Source of the DNA: an uncultured Gammaproteobacteria bacterium
GTDB taxonomy: Bacteria; Patescibacteriota; Microgenomatia; UBA12405
DNA: 57,877 nt
Assembly: GCA_964442385.1 (NCBI GenBank)
Contig: CAYTYZ010000006.1
Span: 1-57,877, forward strand
Direction: 5' to 3'
Part shown: positions 10,198 to 48,741 of the stretch, in pieces
Position numbering within the stretch: position 1 is the first letter of the stretch
Layout: each line of letters opens with the position of its first letter
Made by a program: the position numbers and the translations under genes
The notes under the pieces: model-generated
The model's database searches: none
Seen by the model: the letters and a program-made list of their open reading frames with translations, nothing else
Told to the model about the DNA's origin: nothing

Positions 10198-11076
10198 ATG
10201 AGCTCATCACTAGGTTTGTTAACAATCGCCAGAGCCATGATTGAGGCTGAAGGTCTTCTTGGTGGCCAATGCACTTGGAAAGCCACCAACCCAACTCAAA
10301 AGGAACTACTTTCCCGTTTGACCGTTTTGCGGCAAGCGGTGACCAAAGTACCCACCCTACAGGGCTGGGCTAAAAAAACAGCCGAAGAACTAAATCAAAT
10401 TCTGCGCGAGAATGGCCTGAGCATTCAGCTTCGACCGTGGCTTCCAGGCTCCGGCTTCGGCGTCGTGGCCATCAACAAGTACGGCGTACAGTGGCTTTCA
10501 CCGGGTCTCACCTCGCTTTTTGAGGGCGGCCCCAGGCTGGAGGTTCTAGGACACCCAGCTTTTCTTCTCAAGAGCAGTACCGCCAGAGTCAAAATCTGGG
10601 AGACCAAAAGCAGGAAACTGATCGTCAAGGTCCCAACTAAATCCGGCGACACGCTTTGCCTCAGTATGGAAGACAGGCCTCTCACAGGCTTTGGGCTGCA
10701 TGAGTACGTTGAAAGTTTGCAAGCAGAGCAGGTCAAATCCTTCTATGGTTACGAAGGAGCTATTCTTCCAATGGTCAAGCATGGGCTTCCCGTAGATTTG
10801 GATTGGCTTCGTTTTATGGAAGTCTACTCCTCAGTTGACGGTAACTGGTTCATTAGCCAGGCTCTGCAGGAAATTCAGTTCTCCATGAATCAGTTTGGTG
10901 CAGCAGTCACAGAGGCAGCAGCCATGTCCTTTGCCAGGGGGATGCCCCAGTACCTAGAGGTCAACAAACCTTTTGTTCTTTGGATTGAGCGTCCTGGTGT
11001 GGAAATTCCCCTTAATGTTTTCCATATCACTCCAGAGGACTGGAAAGATCCTGGTAATCTTGCCAAAAGTATGTAG
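10198..11076 (+). CDS. Compact serpin-like protein (292 aa)
   Basis: The C-terminus LEVNKPFVLWI fits the PROSITE serpin signature as I recall it. A hinge-like FGAAVTEAAAMS lies upstream. AINKYGVQW resembles NAIYFKG.W, and VKVPTKSGDTLCLSM resembles LPY.g.lSM. AAGGAG RBS. G+C is visibly above the flanks. Confidence 0.6.
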   Translation: MSSSLGLLTIARAMIEAEGLLGGQCTWKATNPTQKELLSRLTVLRQAVTKVPTLQGWAKKTAEELNQILRENGLSIQLRPWLPGSGFGVVAINKYGVQWLSPGLTSLFEGGPRLEVLGHPAFLLKSSTARVKIWETKSRKLIVKVPTKSGDTLCLSMEDRPLTGFGLHEYVESLQAEQVKSFYGYEGAILPMVKHGLPVDLDWLRFMEVYSSVDGNWFISQALQEIQFSMNQFGAAVTEAAAMSFARGMPQYLEVNKPFVLWIERPGVEIPLNVFHITPEDWKDPGNLAKSM

Positions 11077-42052: not shown

Positions 42053-43594
42053 ATGTTGACAATCATAATTGCTTATCTTGCTGGTGTTATAACTCTTCTT
42101 AGTCCATGTGTTTTACCTGTCTTGCCACTTATCCTATCTGGAACTTCAGGAAATAAAAACCGATCCTATGGCATAATTTTTGGTTTTACTTCTGCGTTTA
42201 CTGCTTTAACTTTATTTCTATCAACTTTGGTGAGGATTTTGGGAATTTCGGCTGATTTCATTAGAACTTCGGCTATCTTATTTATCGCTTTTTTTGCCCT
42301 AACTATTCTAATTCCACCGCTACAATTATTTTGGGAAAGGATTACCAGTAAATTTTTACCAAAACAGTCTTCAAAAACTAACAATGGTTTTATTGGTGGT
42401 CTCATTTTTGGCCTAAACCTAGCCATTCTATGGACACCTTGTGTAGGGCCTATTCTGGCTTCGGTTATATCCCTGGCCCTTACTGGAACCGTCACCCTGC
42501 AAACATTTTTTATTACCCTCTCTTATAGTTTGGGCACAGCTTCTACTATGCTTCTAATTATGGCTTTTGGTCGAAATCTTACCTCGCGACTGCGAAATCC
42601 AATTCTTTTACAAAAAGGCCTGGCTCTTCTAATGCTTGCCACCGCCATTGCCATGTATTTTGGCTTTGATCGTCAGTTACAAACCAAATTGCTTGACCTA
42701 GTACCCACAGTAAAGATATTAGATAACCTTGAAAAAAACGTTACAACCGTAGGGGTAGACCCACGTGTCTACCCTGATAGCAATGCCTACCCATCAGCTC
42801 CTGACTTTACTGGAGGTGGCACCTGGCTTAATTCACCAAACCCTCTTAGCCTTAAAACCAACTTAAAAGGCAAGGTGGTTTTAGTGGATTTTTGGACCTA
42901 TACTTGCATAAACTGTATTCGAACTTTGCCTTATGTTCAATCTTGGCAAGAAAAATATGCCGCCAAAGGGTTTACTGTTGTAGGTGTCCATTCTCCTGAA
43001 TTTGAAATCGAAAAAAATACTAAAAATGTTGAGGACGCTATCACGCGACACAAACTGACTTATCCAGTAGTTCAAGACAACGATTTTAAGATTTGGAGTA
43101 GTTACGACAACCGTTATTGGCCGGCTCACTATTTAATTGATAAAGAGGGGCGGGTTCGCTACACCCATTTTGGTGAAGGCAATTATCTTGAAACCGAAAA
43201 TAAGATCAGGGAACTATTGGACGAATCCCCAATAACAGGCTCCGAACCCAAAGTCGACAATAAGCCAATTTCGCCCGAAACTTATTTAGGAACAGCCAGG
43301 GCCGATTATTCTAGCTTTAGGCTCTCGCCAGATTTTATAAAAAAACCAGAATATATCGAAAGTGCCAGCGATTCTGCTTCGCTTCAACTTCGTTGGCTGG
43401 GTTCAAAAATTATTTTAGTACTATCCTCAGATACTCCCAAAAAACTAACTATAAATAGCGACGGAGCTGTAACTACGATGCTAGTTGATTCCGACAAGGA
43501 ATATATTTTAGCCGACACTACATATGGTCAACATCAGCTTGAATTAACCTTTCAAACCGGAATTCGAGCCTACGCTTTTACCTTTGGTCAATAA
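42053..43594 (+). CDS. dipZ: DipZ-like protein: CcdA/DsbD transmembrane thiol-disulfide transporter fused to a redoxin domain
   Basis: LLSPCVLPVLPL and WTPCVGPIL are the two CcdA Cys motifs, followed by VLVDFWTYTCINCIRTLPY and GVHSPEF. Confidence 0.8.
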   Translation: MLTIIIAYLAGVITLLSPCVLPVLPLILSGTSGNKNRSYGIIFGFTSAFTALTLFLSTLVRILGISADFIRTSAILFIAFFALTILIPPLQLFWERITSKFLPKQSSKTNNGFIGGLIFGLNLAILWTPCVGPILASVISLALTGTVTLQTFFITLSYSLGTASTMLLIMAFGRNLTSRLRNPILLQKGLALLMLATAIAMYFGFDRQLQTKLLDLVPTVKILDNLEKNVTTVGVDPRVYPDSNAYPSAPDFTGGGTWLNSPNPLSLKTNLKGKVVLVDFWTYTCINCIRTLPYVQSWQEKYAAKGFTVVGVHSPEFEIEKNTKNVEDAITRHKLTYPVVQDNDFKIWSSYDNRYWPAHYLIDKEGRVRYTHFGEGNYLETENKIRELLDESPITGSEPKVDNKPISPETYLGTARADYSSFRLSPDFIKKPEYIESASDSASLQLRWLGSKIILVLSSDTPKKLTINSDGAVTTMLVDSDKEYILADTTYGQHQLELTFQTGIRAYAFTFGQ

Positions 43595-43609
43595 CAAACA
43601 ACCTATAAC

Positions 43610-43637
43610 TTGACAAATAGATATATTATGCTACAAT
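43610..43637 (+). promoter_or_regulatory. Near-consensus extended -10 promoter
   Basis: TTGACA (43610-43615), a 16-nt spacer, then TGcTACAAT (TACAAT at 43632-43637). Confidence 0.45.
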
Positions 43638-43674
43638 AAAGTACGTAGATAATACATATCTACCTTGTACTTTT
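43638..43674 (+). terminator. 14-bp hairpin plus T4; either the dipZ terminator or a 5' stem-loop of the island transcript
   Basis: AAAGTACGTAGATA-ataca-TATCTAC(ctt)GTACTTT, then T. Confidence 0.45.
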
Positions 43675-43703
43675 AAAATCCAATCAGGCAATTAAAACAA
43701 TGG

Positions 43704-43764
43704 TTTTGCCCACTTTCCTGTGTCTTTTGCTTTCATGTACTTAGACACAGCAATGTGGGCAAAG
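43704..43764 (+). promoter_or_regulatory. Long nested hairpin in the leader of the G+C-rich gene
   Basis: UUUUGCCCAC (43704-43713) pairs with GUGGGCAAAG (43755-43764). An inner stem is UGUGUCU (43719-43725) with AGACACA (43743-43749). Confidence 0.45.
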
Positions 43765-43851
43765 GGGATAAGGTGCATTGTGCACCCTGGTCCCAAGCCA
43801 ACGTTTTTTTTACTCCACACTGTGGAGATTCTACCCTAAGGAGGGATTACC

Positions 43852-44772
43852 ATGGCTAAGAACAAAGGAAACGGAAACGGAAACGGCAGCGGTAAGGGGG
43901 GTGGCCCCAAGAACCACCAGACCGCCGCGGAGCGCTACGAAGAGCGCGGGAAGCGATCTCAGCCGTCGACGAAGAGTCGGCTGCCGGGGCAGCAACCCCT
44001 AGAGCCCACCTTCGGGTTCAATTTCAGCGTGATGGTTGGCATCGTGACCGGATTCATCGGCTCGACCATCAGGTTGCTGAACGGCAAATTCGTCGTCCGC
44101 GAAAACCAGCGCACGCTGGTTGGTGGCGAGGATGGCAAAGTCACCCTCAAGCTGTCCGGAAGCGTCAGCTCAACCGTGACTTACCTGTGGGAAGGTGACC
44201 ATATCATCGTCATGCTCGAGAAGGGCACTGACAACTGGTATTGGACTACTGTGGCCAATTGGGTCAACACCTTCCCGACCGAGAGCGTTTTCCGAAGCGT
44301 CAACGTCAACGGCACGCCTTTCTGGCGTGGCTTTGGCCTGCCGGGGCCCGAGGTGTCGACTTCCATCACCCAGCTCATGCTGAGCGGGCAGGAAGTCCGC
44401 ATCAAGGAAAACATTGGCAATGCCCAGAGTCAGCTCTGGGTGCCCATGCCCGACCGTATGGCCGGGGCTCGCTGGATCGTTGTTTGCCTGTTGCGCTCCG
44501 CGCGACAGGTCACCAACCTCTACGGCGTCAATCTTGATCCCGAGGTGTTCGACGGGTTCGTGGCCAAGATGGCCACGGGCGAGATCGGCTTCAACGAGTG
44601 CGAGGCGGAAATCGCCTCTGCACTTCAGGCGAAGAAGGCGGAAACGCTTCCTATCGCCGATGTCACCCAGGATGCCCCCGCTTTGGCGGAGGCGTCCACC
44701 GCAGAGCCCGCCCCGGAGCCCGCCATCGAGGCGGCGCCGGAAACGGTCAACGAGCAGGCCATTCTGGCCTAA
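43852..44772 (+). CDS. Orphan G+C-rich protein (306 aa) with a basic Gly/Asn-rich N-terminus, a beta-rich core and an Ala/Pro/Glu-rich tail
   Basis: AAGGAGG lies 7 nt before the ATG. Third codon positions are overwhelmingly G or C in this frame only. Two 60-nt lines I counted by hand are 57% and 68% G+C. Confidence 0.65.
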   Translation: MAKNKGNGNGNGSGKGGGPKNHQTAAERYEERGKRSQPSTKSRLPGQQPLEPTFGFNFSVMVGIVTGFIGSTIRLLNGKFVVRENQRTLVGGEDGKVTLKLSGSVSSTVTYLWEGDHIIVMLEKGTDNWYWTTVANWVNTFPTESVFRSVNVNGTPFWRGFGLPGPEVSTSITQLMLSGQEVRIKENIGNAQSQLWVPMPDRMAGARWIVVCLLRSARQVTNLYGVNLDPEVFDGFVAKMATGEIGFNECEAEIASALQAKKAETLPIADVTQDAPALAEASTAEPAPEPAIEAAPETVNEQAILA

Positions 44773-44790
44773 GGAGTAACGCCTGATTGG

Positions 44791-44839
44791 TGTCTGTGGC
44801 GTATGCGCAAGCATATGCCACAGACATCTTTCTTTTTCT
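44791..44839 (+). terminator. Strong rho-independent terminator
   Basis: A 16-bp stem TGTCTGTGGCGTATGC / GCATATGCCACAGACA (one G-U) with a GCAA tetraloop, then TCTTTCTTTTTCT. Confidence 0.85.
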
Positions 44840-44858
44840 AAAATCTATTTTTTAGCTT

Positions 44859-44887
44859 TTGGAAAAATAAAGACACGGTGGTAACAT
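44859..44887 (+). promoter_or_regulatory. Promoter of the second island gene
   Basis: TTGGAA (44859-44864), a 17-nt spacer, then TAACAT (44882-44887). Confidence 0.4.
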
Positions 44888-44891
44888 ATTG

Positions 44892-44914
44892 CACGTGAAC
44901 ATTTTGTTCATGTG
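44892..44914. promoter_or_regulatory. Palindromic operator-like site over the predicted transcription start
   Basis: CACGTGAACA-ttt-TGTTCATGTG: 10-bp arms with one mismatch. Confidence 0.45.
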
Positions 44915-44945
44915 TTCTTTCAAATACAAAAAGGAGCAAACTATC

Positions 44946-45524
44946 GTGTCAAGCCAGTTTTTTTACACCGCTAGTGAAAAAAATGCCCGCGCCCTTTGTG
45001 ACAAGGCCAATCTTTTGCTGTTTTTCATCAAAACGCTTCGTCCCAGCTTTTGGGACCTGGACCGGTTTTCAATACACTTTGCTAATCCGCCCAAGCAGAT
45101 CAAATCTATACTTAAATACAGTTGTGTAGATGGCAGGTATAGAATTGAAGTTGAATCAGATTCGCTTCTTTGCCGACTAGTAGATCTCATGACTAGTTGT
45201 GGATCGGAGTTTTATGGCAAGTGGTCCTCAACAGGTCCTCTTCTTGAGCCATCGGTAGAACCTGTCTACTTTAATTTTGGGGATCGCAGACTTGTTTTCG
45301 TCCTGGACGAGTTTTACCTTTTCTGTGTCAGTGCCGAGCTTGAGCAGTTTCGCTGGTCCTTTATCGGCAACGAATTCCGCTACAAAAATCCTCATCTAGT
45401 CACCGTTCTCCAGCTAATGCAACACTATAACCCCAGAATGGCCATAAATATTGAGGGTCCCTACAGCGAGCCAAAGCAAGACTGGGTCCATCCTCCTGAA
45501 GGAACCTTCAGTTTCTTTGGTTAA
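44946..45524 (+). CDS. Orphan hypothetical protein (192 aa)
   Basis: Start refined to GTG 44946, with AAGGAG 9 nt upstream. No motif recognised. G+C is intermediate. Confidence 0.5.
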   Translation: MSSQFFYTASEKNARALCDKANLLLFFIKTLRPSFWDLDRFSIHFANPPKQIKSILKYSCVDGRYRIEVESDSLLCRLVDLMTSCGSEFYGKWSSTGPLLEPSVEPVYFNFGDRRLVFVLDEFYLFCVSAELEQFRWSFIGNEFRYKNPHLVTVLQLMQHYNPRMAINIEGPYSEPKQDWVHPPEGTFSFFG

Positions 45525-45542
45525 GTGAAACTTTGAAAGATC

Positions 45543-45575
45543 AAGCCCGGCAGTTAATTCTGTCGGGCTTTTTTT
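45543..45575 (+). terminator. Rho-independent terminator
   Basis: AAGCCCGGCA-gttaattc-TGTCGGGCTT followed by a T-run. Confidence 0.8.
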
Positions 45576-45602
45576 ATGCCTAAAAACAGTTAAAATACAG
45601 CC

Positions 45603-46649
45603 ATGTTGGATATAAAAAGCTTCTCCTATAGTTTGCCCAAAAGCAGTATCGCCTCTACCCCAGTCACACCTCGTGACCATTCTAAACTACTTGTTTTTAA
45701 CCGCCAAACAGGGGAGTATCAAGATCAACATTTTTACAATCTAGTCGATTTACTAACCGAAAATGACGTACTAGTTCTAAACCAAACTAAAGTTTTTCCT
45801 GCTCGTCTTTTTGGCACCAAACCCACCGGAGGCAAGTGTGAAATTCTACTACTCAAACAGCTGACGACTAACAGCTATGAATGTATTGGTACTAATTTAA
45901 AGTCTAATTTAAAAATAACTTTTTCAAGCAATCTTTTTGGTCAAATTATTTCTCACAATACTGTTCAATTTAATCTGTCTGGACTGGAGTTATTACAAGA
46001 ATTTAATCTAATCGGTCACACCCCACTTCCGCCCTATATCGTCGACAATACAGACTCAGAAACCGAATTAAGAACAAAATATCAAACCGTCTATGCTAAA
46101 ACTGGTAGCAGTGCTGCCGCACCCACCGCAGGGCTACATTTTACAACCGAACTTTTAGAAAAACTAAACCAAAAAAATATTCAAATTGAGTTTGTTACGC
46201 TCAATGTTGGCCTTGGAACTTTTCAAAACCTTCGGCCAGAAAATCTTTCTACAAAAACCTTGCATACTGAGTCCTTTGATTTAGAACCAGCCGTAGCCAC
46301 ACGCTTGAATTTAGCCAAACAAGACGGAAAACGTATTATTGCCGTAGGTACCACCACTACCCGAGTGCTCGAAACTTGCACCGAAAATAAAGTTTTAGTA
46401 CCTCAAAAAAATAATACCAATATCTTTATTTTTCCAGAATACCGCTTTAAATTTGCAGATTCGCTTATCACCAATTTTCATTTGCCTGAATCCAGCCTAC
46501 TAATGTTAGTCTCAGCCTTTACTACTTTTCCCAATACTTCCCCAAAATTTACTAACTTTTTGTCGTCTCCTGTGGGCAGAGCCTACACCCACGCCATTAA
46601 TTCTGATTACCGCTTTTTCTCTTTCGGCGATGCTATGTGGATTAGCTAG
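45603..46649 (+). CDS. queA: S-adenosylmethionine:tRNA ribosyltransferase-isomerase
   Basis: FSYSLPKSSIASTPVTPRDHSKLLV, LNQTKVFPARL, YQTVYA, GSSAAAPTAGLHFT and AVGTTTTRVLE. Confidence 0.9.
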   Translation: MLDIKSFSYSLPKSSIASTPVTPRDHSKLLVFNRQTGEYQDQHFYNLVDLLTENDVLVLNQTKVFPARLFGTKPTGGKCEILLLKQLTTNSYECIGTNLKSNLKITFSSNLFGQIISHNTVQFNLSGLELLQEFNLIGHTPLPPYIVDNTDSETELRTKYQTVYAKTGSSAAAPTAGLHFTTELLEKLNQKNIQIEFVTLNVGLGTFQNLRPENLSTKTLHTESFDLEPAVATRLNLAKQDGKRIIAVGTTTTRVLETCTENKVLVPQKNNTNIFIFPEYRFKFADSLITNFHLPESSLLMLVSAFTTFPNTSPKFTNFLSSPVGRAYTHAINSDYRFFSFGDAMWIS

Positions 46650-46654
46650 TATAA

Positions 46655-47173
46655 TTGATTGTGCTAAGAAAAATAATCCTTCTGGCTTTAATGTTAGGTT
46701 GTTTTATTTCTTGGCCGCTTTCACTAGTAAGGTCTCCGGCTAAACAAAATCTAAAGCTGATCTTTAGCCACCAGACACCAGACGAACTCCAGGCCTTTGG
46801 GGAAAAACTTTCTCTTACCACTAGTCCCATAAAAAGAATCTACTATAACAAGTCAACTCTATTTTTAAACCGTTATTTTTCCAATCTAGTAAATCTACTC
46901 GACCCCAATAACTATTTTTTCAATTCACACCCCAGGGGAGATGTTAGTTATTTTGTCTACAGACAAAAATTTCCTTATCTCTATATTTTTCCTTTTATAT
47001 TAGGCCTTTTTACTTATATAGACTCTAGGAAAAACAAATTATTATTCACTGCTGCCATTTATCTATTTTTGCTATCATTTTTCGAGAATACTGATTTTTT
47101 GGATTTCGGCCTGTTTTTTCTAATCAACTACTTTATTTATTTAGGACTTAAAAGATTATTAAAACTCTCTTAA
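46655..47173 (+). CDS. Membrane protein resembling an internal segment of the adjacent glycosyltransferase
   Basis: LLDPNNYFFNSHPRGD..FPYLYIFPFILGLFTYI parallels LSPRALFSLGDPGGRF..LPFYIYGLYLLI in 47188..48741. Confidence 0.45.
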   Translation: MIVLRKIILLALMLGCFISWPLSLVRSPAKQNLKLIFSHQTPDELQAFGEKLSLTTSPIKRIYYNKSTLFLNRYFSNLVNLLDPNNYFFNSHPRGDVSYFVYRQKFPYLYIFPFILGLFTYIDSRKNKLLFTAAIYLFLLSFFENTDFLDFGLFFLINYFIYLGLKRLLKLS

Positions 47174-47187
47174 TTCTTATTCTAGTT

Positions 47188-48741
47188 TTGGTACTGGGAT
47201 TTATTCTTAGGTTTTATCTTCTGGGTCAAACCCCAGCAGGACTTTATGCTGATGAAGCTTCCTTGGGTTATAACGCCTATTCACTCTTAAAAACTGGCAA
47301 GGATGAGTATGGCATGTCCTATCCAATCTTAATTCGTTCTTTTGGGGTTTATGCTGCCCCTATATATACCTATTTATTAATGTTACTTCTGAATTTTCTA
47401 GAATTATCAGTTTTTACTATCAGACTTCCCTCAGCCATATTTTCCACATTAACTATATTGTTTGTCTTCTTACTTGTTTTCGAAGTTAGTAAAAACAAAA
47501 AGTTAGCCTTGCTTTCTTCTTTCTTAATTTCACTTTCTCCTTGGCACTTGGCTTTTTCAAGAAGCTTGTATGAGGCCACCTTGGCTCTCTGCTTTTTTGT
47601 TCTTTCCCTTCTGTTTTTTTATAAATCCTTTTCCAAGAGGTTCTTCCTATTTCCCAGTGTTGTTCTCGCTAGTCTGTCCATCCTCTCCTATCCAGCCTAT
47701 AGAATCATCACCCCTCTAACTTTTTTCTTTTTACTTCTTGTCTATAGGAAAAATGTACTTTTTGCCCATAACTTAAAAACCGTATTTATTTCATTTGTCT
47801 TAGGGCTATTGTTACTGTTACCCACCCTGGCGATAGTAAACACAGCTGGCTTTAAAGCTAGACTCAGTAGTACAGGAATAGGACATGGAGGTATGTCTAT
47901 CACAAGCGAATTTTTGTCGCAATACTTTTTCTATTTATCACCCAGAGCGCTTTTTTCCCTGGGGGACCCGGGAGGCAGATTTTCTTTTCCAGATCTACCG
48001 CCATTTTTTCTCTGGCAATTGCCTTTCTATATCTACGGTCTATATTTGTTAATATCGAATAGAAAACAAAATCAGAGTTTATCTAGCCTAATTTTTATTT
48101 TATTTCTTATCAGCCCCATTGCTGCTGCCCTAACCAAAGATCCATTTTCTTCAATTAGATCTCTACCCCTGTTAATTCCAATAACTATAATCATAAGTTT
48201 TGCCATAATCCACATCCTTAAAAACCACAAACTTCTCATGCTGTTTCTCACTCTTGCTAGTCTCTTTTCTTTAGGACGTATCTATTTATCGGTCTTCAAA
48301 TTTTCCGATTATTATAGACATGTATCTTGGGACTATGGAGCACAGGAATTGTCTTGGAAGTTATATCAATACAAACCTATTCCGATAATAGTCGATAATA
48401 GCCGGGGTCTTTTATATTCTCAATTTTTATTTTTTTATCGCTACAATCCCACCAGCTACCAGATTGACAATCCCGATACCACTTCCGAAAACTATTATGA
48501 CAAAATTTCAATTGAACCCAACAAAAAAATAGATAATATTATCTTTAGACCAATATATTGGGAAAAAGATGTCTATCTAAACCAAATAATTGCTGGAGAC
48601 AGTCTGTCAATAAGTGATGAACAAATTGCCGAACACTGCTTGACCCTATTACATGAGATCAATGGTTTTTCCCACAATCTCCTGTATCGAATCGTAAAAA
48701 CTAATCCACAAAAGAAGTTAAAAAATCACAATTGTTTCTAA
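47188..48741 (+). CDS. ArnT/PMT-like (GT39/GT83-type) membrane glycosyltransferase
   Basis: GLYADEASLGYNAYSLLKTGKDEYG lies in the first loop, with more than 10 TM segments. The start is TTG; the frame is open a further 12 codons upstream without a canonical start. Confidence 0.65.
   Translation: MVLGFILRFYLLGQTPAGLYADEASLGYNAYSLLKTGKDEYGMSYPILIRSFGVYAAPIYTYLLMLLLNFLELSVFTIRLPSAIFSTLTILFVFLLVFEVSKNKKLALLSSFLISLSPWHLAFSRSLYEATLALCFFVLSLLFFYKSFSKRFFLFPSVVLASLSILSYPAYRIITPLTFFFLLLVYRKNVLFAHNLKTVFISFVLGLLLLLPTLAIVNTAGFKARLSSTGIGHGGMSITSEFLSQYFFYLSPRALFSLGDPGGRFSFPDLPPFFLWQLPFYIYGLYLLISNRKQNQSLSSLIFILFLISPIAAALTKDPFSSIRSLPLLIPITIIISFAIIHILKNHKLLMLFLTLASLFSLGRIYLSVFKFSDYYRHVSWDYGAQELSWKLYQYKPIPIIVDNSRGLLYSQFLFFYRYNPTSYQIDNPDTTSENYYDKISIEPNKKIDNIIFRPIYWEKDVYLNQIIAGDSLSISDEQIAEHCLTLLHEINGFSHNLLYRIVKTNPQKKLKNHNCF

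What the first reader, a model, noticed from the sequence alone, without database searches (positions are those of the whole stretch)
43740..44840. A single roughly 60% G+C gene embedded in A+T-rich DNA between dipZ and queA
Composition switches abruptly. Two 60-nt lines inside the gene that I hand-counted are 57% and 68% G+C. The line at 43621 is 23%, and a nearby ordinary coding line at 47401 is about one third G+C. G and C concentrate at third codon positions of the 43852..44772 frame, and that same enrichment produces the cloud of spurious overlapping ORFs in the track. So this is a genuine coding region with the codon usage of a high-G+C organism. The gene nonetheless carries a host-style SD, an A+T-rich promoter region and a very strong terminator. 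The protein has a basic Gly/Asn-rich N-terminus (KNKGNGNGNGSGKGGGPKN), a beta-rich core and an Ala/Pro/Glu tail, and I could not place it in any family. It may be a recent horizontal acquisition. If the genome is an epibiont, a high-G+C host would be an obvious donor, but that is speculation. The alternative is an assembly chimera.
Basis: seen in the sequence. Interest (0 to 1): 0.72.

Follow-up and report, generated by a model that had tools for sequence, protein, structure and literature searches.

The report
GC-rich orphan gene with virus-grade RNA folding
A single gene of about 61% G+C in a 39% G+C candidate-phyla-radiation (CPR) bacterial genome is real, has only one relative among about 15 billion proteins, and in both copies the RNA is predicted to fold as heavily as the most structured RNA-virus genomes, so its odd composition probably reflects selection on RNA structure and not the imprint of a high-G+C donor.

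Summary
ORF 43852-44772 is 61.2% G+C (GC3 78.5%) in a 39.4% G+C window, more than 5 sd from the mean. It is a true coding gene with its own near-consensus promoter, Shine-Dalgarno (SD) site and 18-bp terminator.

An assembly chimera is very unlikely. The only homologue found (38% identity, an independent contig) shows the same G+C-rich ORF running into A+T-rich DNA. It also shares the SD region, a 3' motif, a terminator hairpin with 5 compensatory pairs, and an A+T-rich tail.

The gene is lineage-specific. A relative with conserved trx-dipZ-queA order lacks it.

The idea that the gene carries a high-G+C donor's codon usage is not supported. No donor homologue exists, the amino-acid composition is not that of a high-G+C organism, and the unit carries its own A+T-rich flanks.

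The new result is that both family members have pervasive excess RNA structure. The minimum-folding-energy difference (MFED, the excess over shuffled controls) is 16.6% and 13.5%, and z is -6.5 and -6.0 against synonymous shuffles. Host genes and ordinary high-G+C genes give 0-2.7%. Seventeen of the 19 nt between the stop codon and the terminator pair with the 5' leader.

Protein function remains unknown. These are predictions from two sequences only.

The parts
43595..45602 (+). Lineage-specific island between the dipZ stop and the queA start. It is 2008 nt here, against about 425 nt holding an unrelated 123-aa ORF in relative L013.
43610..43637 (+). Sigma-70-type promoter TTGACA-16 nt-TACAAT with an extended -10 TG. 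The predicted transcription start is near 43644-43646.
   Evidence: sequence
43645..43663 (+). Hairpin at the predicted 5' end of the transcript (GUAGAUA...UAUCUAC).
43680..43689 (+). 5' arm (CCAATCAGGC) of the 10-bp long-range helix that closes the transcript.
   Evidence: I18; unique in the window, pair probability 0.82-1.0; p = 0.0014
43694..43807 (+). Structured leader domain, including the 21-nt-arm hairpin 43705-43763 and the hairpin 43771-43785. The leader 43645-43865 folds with z = -4.9.
   Evidence: (I1)
43810..43816 (+). 5' arm (TTACTCC) of a second 7-bp closing helix, paired with 44773-44779.
   Evidence: sequence
43838..43845 (+). Shine-Dalgarno AAGGAGGG, 6-7 nt before the ATG. The SD-to-ATG block is conserved in L010.
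43852..44772 (+). 306-aa orphan ORF, 61% G+C. It has a basic Gly/Asn/Lys N-terminal arm, a beta-rich core, three helices and an acidic Ala/Pro/Glu tail. Its RNA is pervasively structured.
44773..44790 (+). 3' clamp between the stop codon and the terminator. GGAGTAA pairs with 43810-16 and GCCTGATTGG pairs with 43680-89. CCTGATTG is conserved in L010.
44789..44838 (+). Intrinsic terminator with an 18-bp stem and U-tract. It is homologous to the L010 terminator: 13 shared pairs, 5 of them compensatory, none broken.
44833..44867 (+). A+T-rich stretch after the terminator that is conserved with L010.
   Evidence: score 32 vs 17.4 +/- 2.9; 0 of 500 shuffles
44946..45524 (+). Second gene of the island. 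It is a 192-aa singleton orphan with a GTG start after an AAGGAG SD, GC3 0.47 and atypical codon usage. Its own terminator lies at 45543-45570.

Best explanation
This is a real, laterally acquired, self-contained single-gene cassette. Its parts, in order, are a promoter, a 5'-terminal hairpin, a structured leader of about 205 nt, an SD, the ORF, a 3' clamp, a long terminator hairpin and a short A+T-rich tail. It belongs to an orphan protein family with two known members. Its high G+C, concentrated at synonymous sites, is an intrinsic and selected property of the transcript and is tied to pervasive RNA secondary structure. It is not a passive imprint of a high-G+C donor genome.

Shown: the composition contrast; that the ORF is coding; that the gene is absent from a syntenic relative; that the only homologue has the same architecture and composition; the excess predicted folding in both members but in none of the controls; the statistically significant 5'-3' complementarity; and the homologous terminator with compensatory changes.

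Inferred: the folded transcript is closed end to end and capped by hairpins, which would make a compact, nuclease-resistant, long-lived mRNA. The encoded protein, with its basic N-terminal arm, beta-rich core and acidic tail, binds nucleic acid, possibly its own RNA.
For: Composition.

Coding under purifying selection.

Family of two: one search gives one homologue among 1.84e9 representatives (E = 1.6e-29). Searches find nothing else. JGI metagenomes, IMG/VR, phage records and plasmid records also give nothing.

Same contrast in the homologue: its ORF is 59.6% G+C (GC3 0.69) and is followed by DNA of 38-45% G+C on the same contig. That flanking gene uses host-like codons (r = 0.53).

Conserved non-coding parts: the SD-ATG block; the CCTGATTG motif; the terminator with 13 shared pairs, 5 compensatory and 0 broken; and the A+T-rich tail.

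Lineage-specific: L013 has trx-dipZ-queA with 70-72% identical proteins but no such gene, and no window above 45% G+C.

RNA structure against synonymous-codon shuffles: z = -6.5 and -6.0, against -0.9 for dipZ and queA and -1.7 to +1.4 for nine ordinary high-G+C genes.

Standard MFED: 16.6% and 13.5%, against 0-1.5% for host genes and 1.0-2.7% for high-G+C controls. The signal is spread along the ORF. Third codon positions are preferentially paired (0.70 vs 0.65 +/- 0.014). The sense strand scores higher than the antisense strand.

Amino-acid index GARP/FYMINK: 0.96-1.39, against 1.9-2.6 for real high-G+C genes.

5'-3' clamp.

General principle: structured RNAs appear as G+C-rich islands in A+T-rich genomes (PMC11109978, read).
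Against: All structure evidence is thermodynamic prediction. There is no probing or expression data. With only two sequences, positional conservation of helices inside the ORF is not demonstrated (true register against shifted registers, z = -1.6).

GC1 and GC2 are also raised, and codon usage correlates with that of a real high-G+C genome (r = 0.66-0.78), so a high-G+C ancestry cannot be excluded.

The antisense strand also folds in excess (z = -4.7), so a single-stranded DNA form or an antisense transcript is not ruled out.

The upstream part of the L010 unit is missing, so the 5'-3' clamp has no comparative support.

The protein's fold and function are unknown: the AlphaFold2 models have mean pLDDT of 39 and 49.

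The junctions were not verified with reads.
Confidence: 0.55

Rival explanations
1. Ordinary recent horizontal transfer from an unsampled high-G+C organism, or from its phage or plasmid. In this reading the composition is a donor imprint that has not yet ameliorated, and the RNA folding is incidental.
For: The gene is absent from syntenic relative L013. GC1 and GC2 are raised as well as GC3. Codon usage is anticorrelated with the host (r = -0.50) and resembles that of a real high-G+C genome (r = 0.66-0.78). Its neighbour orf44946 is also compositionally atypical.
Against: No homologue exists in any lineage other than one equally embedded copy. The two copies are only 38% identical yet both keep GC3 of 0.69-0.79 in A+T-rich surroundings, and they share A+T-rich flanks and a homologous terminator. 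The amino-acid composition is not high-G+C-like. Nine ordinary high-G+C genes show no excess structure.
Confidence: 0.2
2. A DNA-resident form or derivative of an RNA element, such as a satellite-virus-like or self-packaging capsid gene. The heavily and compactly folded 1.1-1.2 kb RNA would be bound or encapsidated by the basic-armed protein it encodes.
For: MFED of 13.5-16.6% lies in the range reported for the most structured RNA viruses (PMC7642675, read). [quoted passage not shown] The window RNA is more compact than its shuffles (maximum ladder distance 90 vs 124 +/- 15, z = -2.2). The protein has a basic N-terminal arm, a beta-rich core and an acidic tail. Weak Foldseek hits are mostly OB-fold, S1 and cold-shock nucleic-acid-binding domains. 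From my own knowledge, single-ORF RNAs of about 1.1-1.2 kb encoding a basic-armed coat protein are typical of satellite viruses.
Against: There is no RNA-dependent RNA polymerase, reverse transcriptase or ribozyme nearby. No capsid fold or viral homologue was found. Both copies sit on DNA contigs with bacterial promoter and terminator signals. The compactness result is not significant for L010 (z = -1.2). The structural models are unreliable.
Confidence: 0.1
3. The hairpin richness acts at the DNA level or on the antisense strand, for example through a single-stranded DNA transfer intermediate. In this reading it is not a property of the mRNA.
For: The antisense strand also folds well beyond its shuffles (z = -4.7 in both members). 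A 10-bp inverted repeat brackets the unit.
Against: The sense strand scores higher in both members. No transposase, relaxase or integrase is present. The promoter, SD and terminator are all in the sense orientation. The terminator keeps G-U pairs that exist only in the sense RNA.
Confidence: 0.06
4. An assembly chimera, in which a G+C-rich fragment from another organism was stitched into a CPR contig.
For: The composition changes abruptly. An independent Logan contig with the identical sequence covers only 43788-44791 and does not reach clearly host DNA. The host proteins tested are recorded from NCBI only, while this protein is recorded from NCBI and Logan.
Against: The homologue on L010, from a different run, reads continuously from the G+C-rich ORF through a homologous terminator into A+T-rich DNA. 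The 3' UTR is complementary to the A+T-rich leader lying outside the Logan contig. Both flanks return to the same syntenic host genes. The host also assembles into roughly 1-kb pieces elsewhere (L020), so the short contig is unremarkable.
Confidence: 0.03
5. A large non-coding structured RNA that happens to contain an open reading frame.
For: It is a G+C-rich island in an A+T-rich genome with a very high folding excess (PMC11109978).
Against: Composition has a three-base periodicity. The third codon position diverges most, and 48 of 88 identical residues are encoded by different codons. The protein-level match has E = 1.6e-29. The SD, ATG and C-terminus are conserved. There is no Rfam match.
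Confidence: 0.02

Closest known systems
[quoted passage not shown]
   Same: The folding excess runs throughout the coding sequence and is of the same size: MFED is 13.5-16.6% here, against 7.5-10.7% for HCV and about 15% for SARS-CoV-2 (PMC7642675). The degree of folding is shared by relatives, but the individual pairings are not demonstrably conserved.
   Different: This gene is DNA-encoded in a bacterial chromosome, with a sigma-70-type promoter and an intrinsic terminator. There is no replicase. It is a single gene of about 1.2 kb. The explanation proposed for viruses, shielding from vertebrate innate immunity, does not apply here.
G+C-rich structured non-coding RNAs in A+T-rich bacterial genomes (the basis of GC-IGR searches; for example OLE, GOLLD and ROOL, recalled from my own knowledge)
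   Same: It is a local G+C spike in an A+T-rich genome that coincides with a highly structured transcript (PMC11109978).
   Different: It is protein-coding and under purifying selection. It has no Rfam match. No conserved architecture is supported by covariation, apart from the terminator hairpin.
hok-type mRNAs of type I toxin-antitoxin systems, which have 5'-3' fold-back (fbi) pairing (recalled from my own knowledge)
   Same: The transcript's 5' leader is predicted to pair with the segment just upstream of the terminator, closing the whole mRNA. In hok mRNA this arrangement confers stability and translational inertness.
   Different: The product is a 306-aa soluble-looking protein, not a small membrane toxin. 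No antisense RNA gene is evident. There is no PADLOC hit. The excess structure spans the whole ORF and not only the ends.
Lineage-specific orphan genes and genomic islets acquired laterally in Patescibacteria
   Same: The composition and codon usage are atypical, the gene is absent from a syntenic relative, and it has no annotated homologues. Gene exchange in Patescibacteria is the subject of PMC12455944, which I saw as a title and abstract but did not read.
   Different: There are no mobility genes, no tRNA and no integration repeats. The only homologue keeps the same composition contrast and the same A+T-rich flanks. The RNA-structure signature is not a feature of ordinary transferred genes.
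Satellite-virus genomes such as STNV and STMV (recalled from my own knowledge)
   Same: A highly base-paired RNA of about 1.1-1.2 kb carries a single ORF for a protein with a basic, flexible N-terminal arm and a beta-rich body.
   Different: The jelly-roll fold is not demonstrated. The gene is found on DNA. There is no helper virus context and no viral homologue.

Membership tests
Laterally acquired genomic island / ORFan | Composition and codon usage deviate from the host genome | tested here: met
   61.2% against 39.4% G+C, more than 5 sd. RSCU correlation with the host is -0.50, against 0.52-0.80 for host genes.
Laterally acquired genomic island / ORFan | Absent from the syntenic position in related genomes | tested here: met
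   L013 has orf41291-trx-dipZ-queA with 59-79% identical proteins, but an unrelated 123-aa ORF lies in the gap. Only one relative was informative.
Laterally acquired genomic island / ORFan | An identifiable donor lineage, or mobility machinery such as an integrase, a transposase, a tRNA target or flanking direct repeats | tested here: not met
   No homologue outside the two embedded copies. No tRNA. No mobility domain in the neighbours. The only repeats are a 10-bp inverted repeat and one 16-nt direct repeat of uncertain meaning.
GORS-type pervasive RNA structure | MFED well above that of unstructured controls (roughly 7% or more) | tested here: met
   16.6% and 13.5%, against 0-2.7% in 7 control genes. 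Synonymous-shuffle z is -6.5 and -6.0.
GORS-type pervasive RNA structure | Structure is distributed along the coding sequence and is not confined to discrete elements | tested here: met
   The 150-nt profile has mean z of -1.95, with 44% of windows below -2 across the whole ORF. In L010 the signal is strongest over the homologous core.
GORS-type pervasive RNA structure | Pairings are poorly conserved between relatives, although the degree of folding is conserved | tested here: inconclusive
   True register against shifted registers gives -93 vs -78 +/- 10 (z = -1.6). With two sequences at 48% nucleotide identity the test has low power.
GORS-type pervasive RNA structure | The molecule is the genome of an RNA virus | tested here: not met
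   Both copies lie on DNA contigs next to cellular genes. No replicase is present.
Structured non-coding RNA | No protein-coding constraint | tested here: not met
   Codon-position substitution pattern and 48 synonymous differences among 88 identical residues.
Structured non-coding RNA | Match to a curated RNA family | tested here: not met
   No Rfam hit at gathering score. Only chance-level hits appear at relaxed thresholds.
Viroid-like / Obelisk-like / delta-like element | Rod-like global fold, circularity, self-cleaving ribozymes | tested here: not met
   The MFE fold is multibranched and not a rod. No ribozyme family was hit. The ends of the Logan contig do not overlap. Circularity itself cannot be tested here.
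Type I toxin-antitoxin (hok-like) | Small hydrophobic toxin ORF with an antisense RNA | tested here: not met
   The ORF is 306 aa with no conserved transmembrane segment. No defence or TA model was hit.
Type I toxin-antitoxin (hok-like) | 5'-3' fold-back pairing of the full-length mRNA | tested here: met
   Helices of 10 bp and 7 bp join the leader and the 3' UTR, with pair probability of about 1. Shuffles give p = 0.0014 for the 10-mer and 0 of 5000 for both helices. This is prediction only.
Satellite-virus-like capsid gene | Jelly-roll capsid fold | tested here: inconclusive
   The models have mean pLDDT of 39 and 49. No Foldseek match reaches E <= 1e-3.
Satellite-virus-like capsid gene | RNA is encapsidated and depends on a helper virus | not testable with these tools
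   This needs particle purification, or paired metatranscriptome and virome data.

The most novel reading that the evidence does not exclude
A chromosomally carried, self-contained RNA-protein element of CPR bacteria. The cassette would produce an RNA of about 1.2 kb with RNA-virus-grade folding, closed end to end, which is bound or packaged by the basic-armed protein it encodes. That would make it a domesticated or endogenized satellite-like or capsid-like system. It could serve as an ultra-stable message, or as a vehicle for RNA transfer between an episymbiont and its host cell, where the G+C-rich codons might be decoded more readily.
Probability: 0.08. Interest if true: 0.95.

Novelty: new variant of a known kind. 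Interest (0 to 1): 0.7.

Why it matters
Local G+C anomalies in protein-coding genes are routinely read as horizontal transfer from a donor of that composition. In this case the donor reading fails several direct tests. The anomaly instead coincides with a predicted RNA-structure excess that has so far been described for RNA-virus genomes and not for cellular genes. If probing confirms it, this would be a cellular mRNA whose synonymous sites, and therefore its G+C content, are shaped mainly by whole-transcript folding. That would add a new cause of apparently alien genes, and a possible handle on mRNA stability or RNA packaging in the poorly understood CPR bacteria. It also suggests a practical screen: compute MFED on compositional-outlier ORFs to separate donor imprint from RNA-level selection.

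Tried and rejected
Family libraries. Pfam, PHROGs, NCBIfam and PADLOC gave no hit for the protein or for orf44946.

Homologue searches. The word-indexed search of 5.8e9 clusters found only the protein itself, both with the single sequence and with the two-member profile. P0003 from the exhaustive search is a low-complexity false hit. JGI metagenome contigs, IMG/VR, phage records and plasmid records had no relatives. The conserved 3' element was not found in IMG/VR. My first pattern had a gap one base too short to admit the L010 version.

Structure. Two AlphaFold2 runs gave mean pLDDT of 39 and 49. Foldseek against PDB and BFVD gave nothing at E <= 1e-3. The OB-fold-like hits rest on a region with pLDDT below 50, so I did not use them as evidence. 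A PDB sequence-profile search found nothing significant.

Synteny. Distant CPR relatives (DipZ about 44% identical) share no synteny. Attempts to reach the junction in the closer relative in run SRR19554488 failed, because no cluster-mates of junction proteins exist.

Independent existence of the gene in run SRR12487045. This is inconclusive. The host proteins tested are recorded from NCBI only. However, the host also assembles into roughly 1-kb pieces in a JGI sample, so fragmentation explains the pattern.

Ideas rejected. A rod-like, viroid-like fold is rejected because the fold is multibranched. A conserved antisense gene is rejected. Relatedness among the three compositionally odd ORFs is rejected. 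Comparable G+C spikes were not found in about 200 kb of related CPR loci.

Literature. A search for the run accessions and the JGI contig prefix returned nothing.
Full report
1. THE OBSERVATION

The ORF at 43852-44772 (+, 306 aa) is 61.2% G+C (GC1 59.0, GC2 46.3, GC3 78.5). The window as a whole is 39.4% G+C. Among all 921-nt windows the mean is 39.4% with sd 3.9%, and the maximum falls exactly on this ORF. Host ORFs have GC3 of 0.25-0.43. The neighbours are a thioredoxin, a DsbD/DipZ-like reductase (42053-43594) and QueA (45603-46649). A promoter with 11 of 12 consensus matches and an extended -10 TG lies at 43610-43637. The SD AAGGAGGG lies at 43838-45, and an 18-bp terminator at 44789-44828. 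The description is therefore accurate. The cloud of overlapping ORFs is a by-product of composition, and the long antisense ORF has no conserved counterpart in the homologue.

2. IT IS A CODING GENE IN A FAMILY OF TWO

The protein matches nothing in Pfam, PHROGs, NCBIfam or PADLOC. The word-indexed search of 5.8 billion clusters returned only the protein itself. The exhaustive HMMER scan of 1.84 billion representatives found one true homologue, P0002 (433 aa, E = 1.6e-29, 38% identity over residues 43-294). A profile built from the two found nothing more, and each is a singleton cluster. Nothing turned up in JGI metagenome contigs, IMG/VR, phage records or plasmid records.

Between the two genes, differences per codon position are 0.48, 0.44 and 0.63. 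Of 88 identical residues, 48 use different codons. The ORF is therefore translated and under purifying selection.

3. NOT A CHIMERA, AND THE CONTRAST IS A FAMILY TRAIT

P0002 lies on an independent contig (L010, run SRR20217191). Its ORF is 59.6% G+C (GC3 0.69). It runs through a long terminator hairpin into DNA of 38-45% G+C, which carries a convergent membrane-protein gene with A+T-type codon usage.

The two loci share several non-coding elements:
- the SD-ATG block;
- a CCTGATTG motif after the stop codon;
- a homologous terminator in which all 13 consensus pairs form in both sequences, 5 of them through double compensatory changes;
- about 35 nt of A+T-rich sequence after the terminator (score 32 against 17.4 +/- 2.9 for shuffles; 0 of 500 reached it).

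In the window, 17 of the 19 nt between the stop codon and the terminator stem are complementary to two segments of the 5' leader, 43680-89 and 43810-16. Shuffled leaders reach a 10-mer in 0.14% of trials and never reach both helices (0 of 5000). Conserved and complementary elements thus cross the composition boundary on both sides, which a mis-join cannot explain.

A Logan contig identical to 43788-44791 exists. It does not reach clear host DNA, so it adds nothing on the junctions. Its short length is unremarkable, because the host also assembles into a 981-nt piece in a JGI sample.

4. LINEAGE-SPECIFIC

The host is a Patescibacteria (CPR) bacterium. The nearest DipZ in the species-representative genomes is 44% identical and shows no synteny. 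A JGI contig (L013, 36.5% G+C) has orf41291-trx-dipZ-queA followed by a UDG-like gene, with 59-79% identical proteins. In L013 the dipZ-queA gap is about 425 nt and holds an unrelated A+T-rich 123-aa ORF. In the window the gap is 2008 nt and holds the G+C-rich gene plus a second orphan, orf44946. orf44946 is itself a singleton with atypical codon usage (GC3 0.47; r = 0.28 with the host). The interval 43595-45602 is therefore an island, which is consistent with lateral acquisition.

5. THE DONOR-IMPRINT READING FAILS SEVERAL TESTS

- No member of the family exists in any high-G+C lineage.
- Two copies that have diverged to 38% identity both keep a high GC3 inside A+T-rich DNA, and they share A+T-rich flanks.
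- GARP/FYMINK is 0.96 for the P0001 core and 1.39 for the P0002 core. Host proteins give 0.72 +/- 0.19 (maximum 1.09). Genes of a real 61-65% G+C genome with the same GC3 give 1.9-2.6. The enrichment is disproportionately synonymous.

Against this, GC1 and GC2 are raised, and RSCU correlates with that of a Comamonadaceae genome (r = 0.66-0.78). A high-G+C ancestry cannot be excluded.

6. THE UNEXPECTED RESULT: PERVASIVE RNA STRUCTURE

I shuffled synonymous codons so that the protein, the codon usage and GC3 were all preserved.
- The window ORF folds to -431.9 kcal/mol against -373.6 +/- 9.0 for shuffles (z = -6.5; 0 of 60 shuffles reached it).
- The L010 ORF folds to -576.8 against -521.8 +/- 9.1 (z = -6.0).
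- dipZ and queA give z of about -0.9.
- Nine ordinary high-G+C genes give z from -1.7 to +1.4.

By the standard measure (350-nt fragments, dinucleotide-preserving shuffles):
- MFED is 16.6% for the window gene (17.7% for the whole unit) and 13.5% for L010 (14.9% for its core).
- dipZ gives 1.5%, queA 0.0% and orf44946 5.4%.
- Five high-G+C control genes give 1.0-2.7%.

For comparison, PMC7642675 reports about 1.1% for unstructured viruses, 7.5-10.7% for HCV and about 15% for SARS-CoV-2.

Further properties of the signal:
- It is spread along the ORF. Mean local z is -1.95 and 44% of windows fall below -2, against a mean of -0.06 for dipZ.
- The sense strand exceeds the antisense strand (-6.5 and -6.0 against -4.7 and -4.7).
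- Third codon positions are preferentially paired (0.70 against 0.65 +/- 0.014).
- The window RNA is somewhat more compact than its shuffles (maximum ladder distance z = -2.2). For L010 this is not significant (z = -1.2).
- Helices are not demonstrably conserved in position between the homologues (z = -1.6). That matches the published description of GORS, but the test has low power.
- The global fold is multibranched and not rod-like. The whole ORF sits inside a domain closed by the two 5'-3' helices, with a hairpin at the predicted 5' end and the terminator at the 3' end.
- No Rfam family, including any ribozyme, matches.

7. INTERPRETATION

Structured RNAs are known to stand out as G+C-rich islands in A+T-rich genomes (PMC11109978). 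The simplest account of all the results is that this family's transcript is under selection for extensive folding. That selection would recruit synonymous sites and raise G+C, and the unit would move or persist together with its own A+T-rich regulatory flanks.

The consequence I infer is a closed, hairpin-capped, nuclease-resistant and possibly compact mRNA. This is not shown.

The protein has a net-positive N-terminal arm, a beta-rich core, three helices that are predicted with better confidence, and an acidic Ala/Pro/Glu tail. I infer nucleic-acid binding from this. Weak OB-fold-like Foldseek hits come from an unreliable model and carry little weight.

Rivals, in order of my estimate:
- plain transfer from an unsampled high-G+C donor, 0.20;
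- an RNA-element-derived or self-packaging system, 0.10;
- DNA-level or antisense hairpins, 0.06;
- chimera, 0.03;
- non-coding RNA with a spurious ORF, 0.02.

8. LIMITS

Only two sequences are known. All structure evidence is predicted. There are no reads, no expression data and no usable protein model. The upstream half of the L010 unit is missing. Only one informative syntenic relative was found.

9. VERDICT

Lateral acquisition is supported. The inference of a high-G+C donor is not supported. What raises the interest is the RNA-virus-grade folding shared by the only two members of an otherwise unknown gene family in A+T-rich genomes. That feature has, to my knowledge, not been described for a cellular protein-coding gene.

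Noticed in passing
window 10198-11076 (+): This is a second compositional outlier: a 292-aa ORF of 50% G+C (GC3 0.53) with no Pfam hit. It shows no similarity to the 43.8-kb gene and no excess RNA structure (synonymous-shuffle z = -0.5). It is probably an ordinary foreign gene and makes a useful contrast.
   Followed up: partly
window 44946-45524 (+): The island's second gene is a 192-aa singleton orphan with a GTG start after an AAGGAG SD and its own terminator at 45543-45570. It has GC3 of 0.47, codon usage outside the host range (r = 0.28) and a mild structure excess (MFED 5.4%, z = -2.0). It is absent from L013 and from the L010 locus.
   Followed up: partly
window 46655-48741 compared with L013 8614-8640: The window carries two further genes between queA and the UDG-like gene: orf46655 and a PMT_2-like glycosyltransferase at 47188-48741. 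Relative L013 lacks both. L013 also has a small Met/Lys-rich, secreted-looking 123-aa ORF in the dipZ-queA gap. This neighbourhood is a hotspot of gene turnover.
   Followed up: no
window 43828-43843 and 44761-44776: A 16-nt direct repeat, ATTCTnnCCTAAGGAG (14 of 16 identical), lies at the SD and again across the stop codon, 933 nt apart. It occurs nowhere else in the window. It could be chance, or a trace of a tandem or recombinational origin. The copy at the stop codon is not conserved in L010.
   Followed up: partly
window 43865-43891: A hexanucleotide repeat (GGAAAC) x3 encodes the GNGNGN run in the N-terminal arm. It is a possible site of in-frame length variation (D1).
   Followed up: no
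L001 (= window 43788-44791): Of 16 window proteins whose exact sequence was found in the collection, this is the only one that is also recorded from a Logan run (SRR12487045). The 1004-nt contig ends just inside the leader hairpins and exactly at the base before the terminator stem. Graph branching from multiple contexts or alleles and simple low coverage could not be told apart.
   Followed up: partly
L003, L006, L009 (GTDB genome contigs): Records titled 'uncultured Pseudomonadales' or 'uncultured Gammaproteobacteria' carry the CPR-type DipZ (39-44% identical to the window's) and are 39-43% G+C. Their taxonomic labels look doubtful.
   Followed up: no
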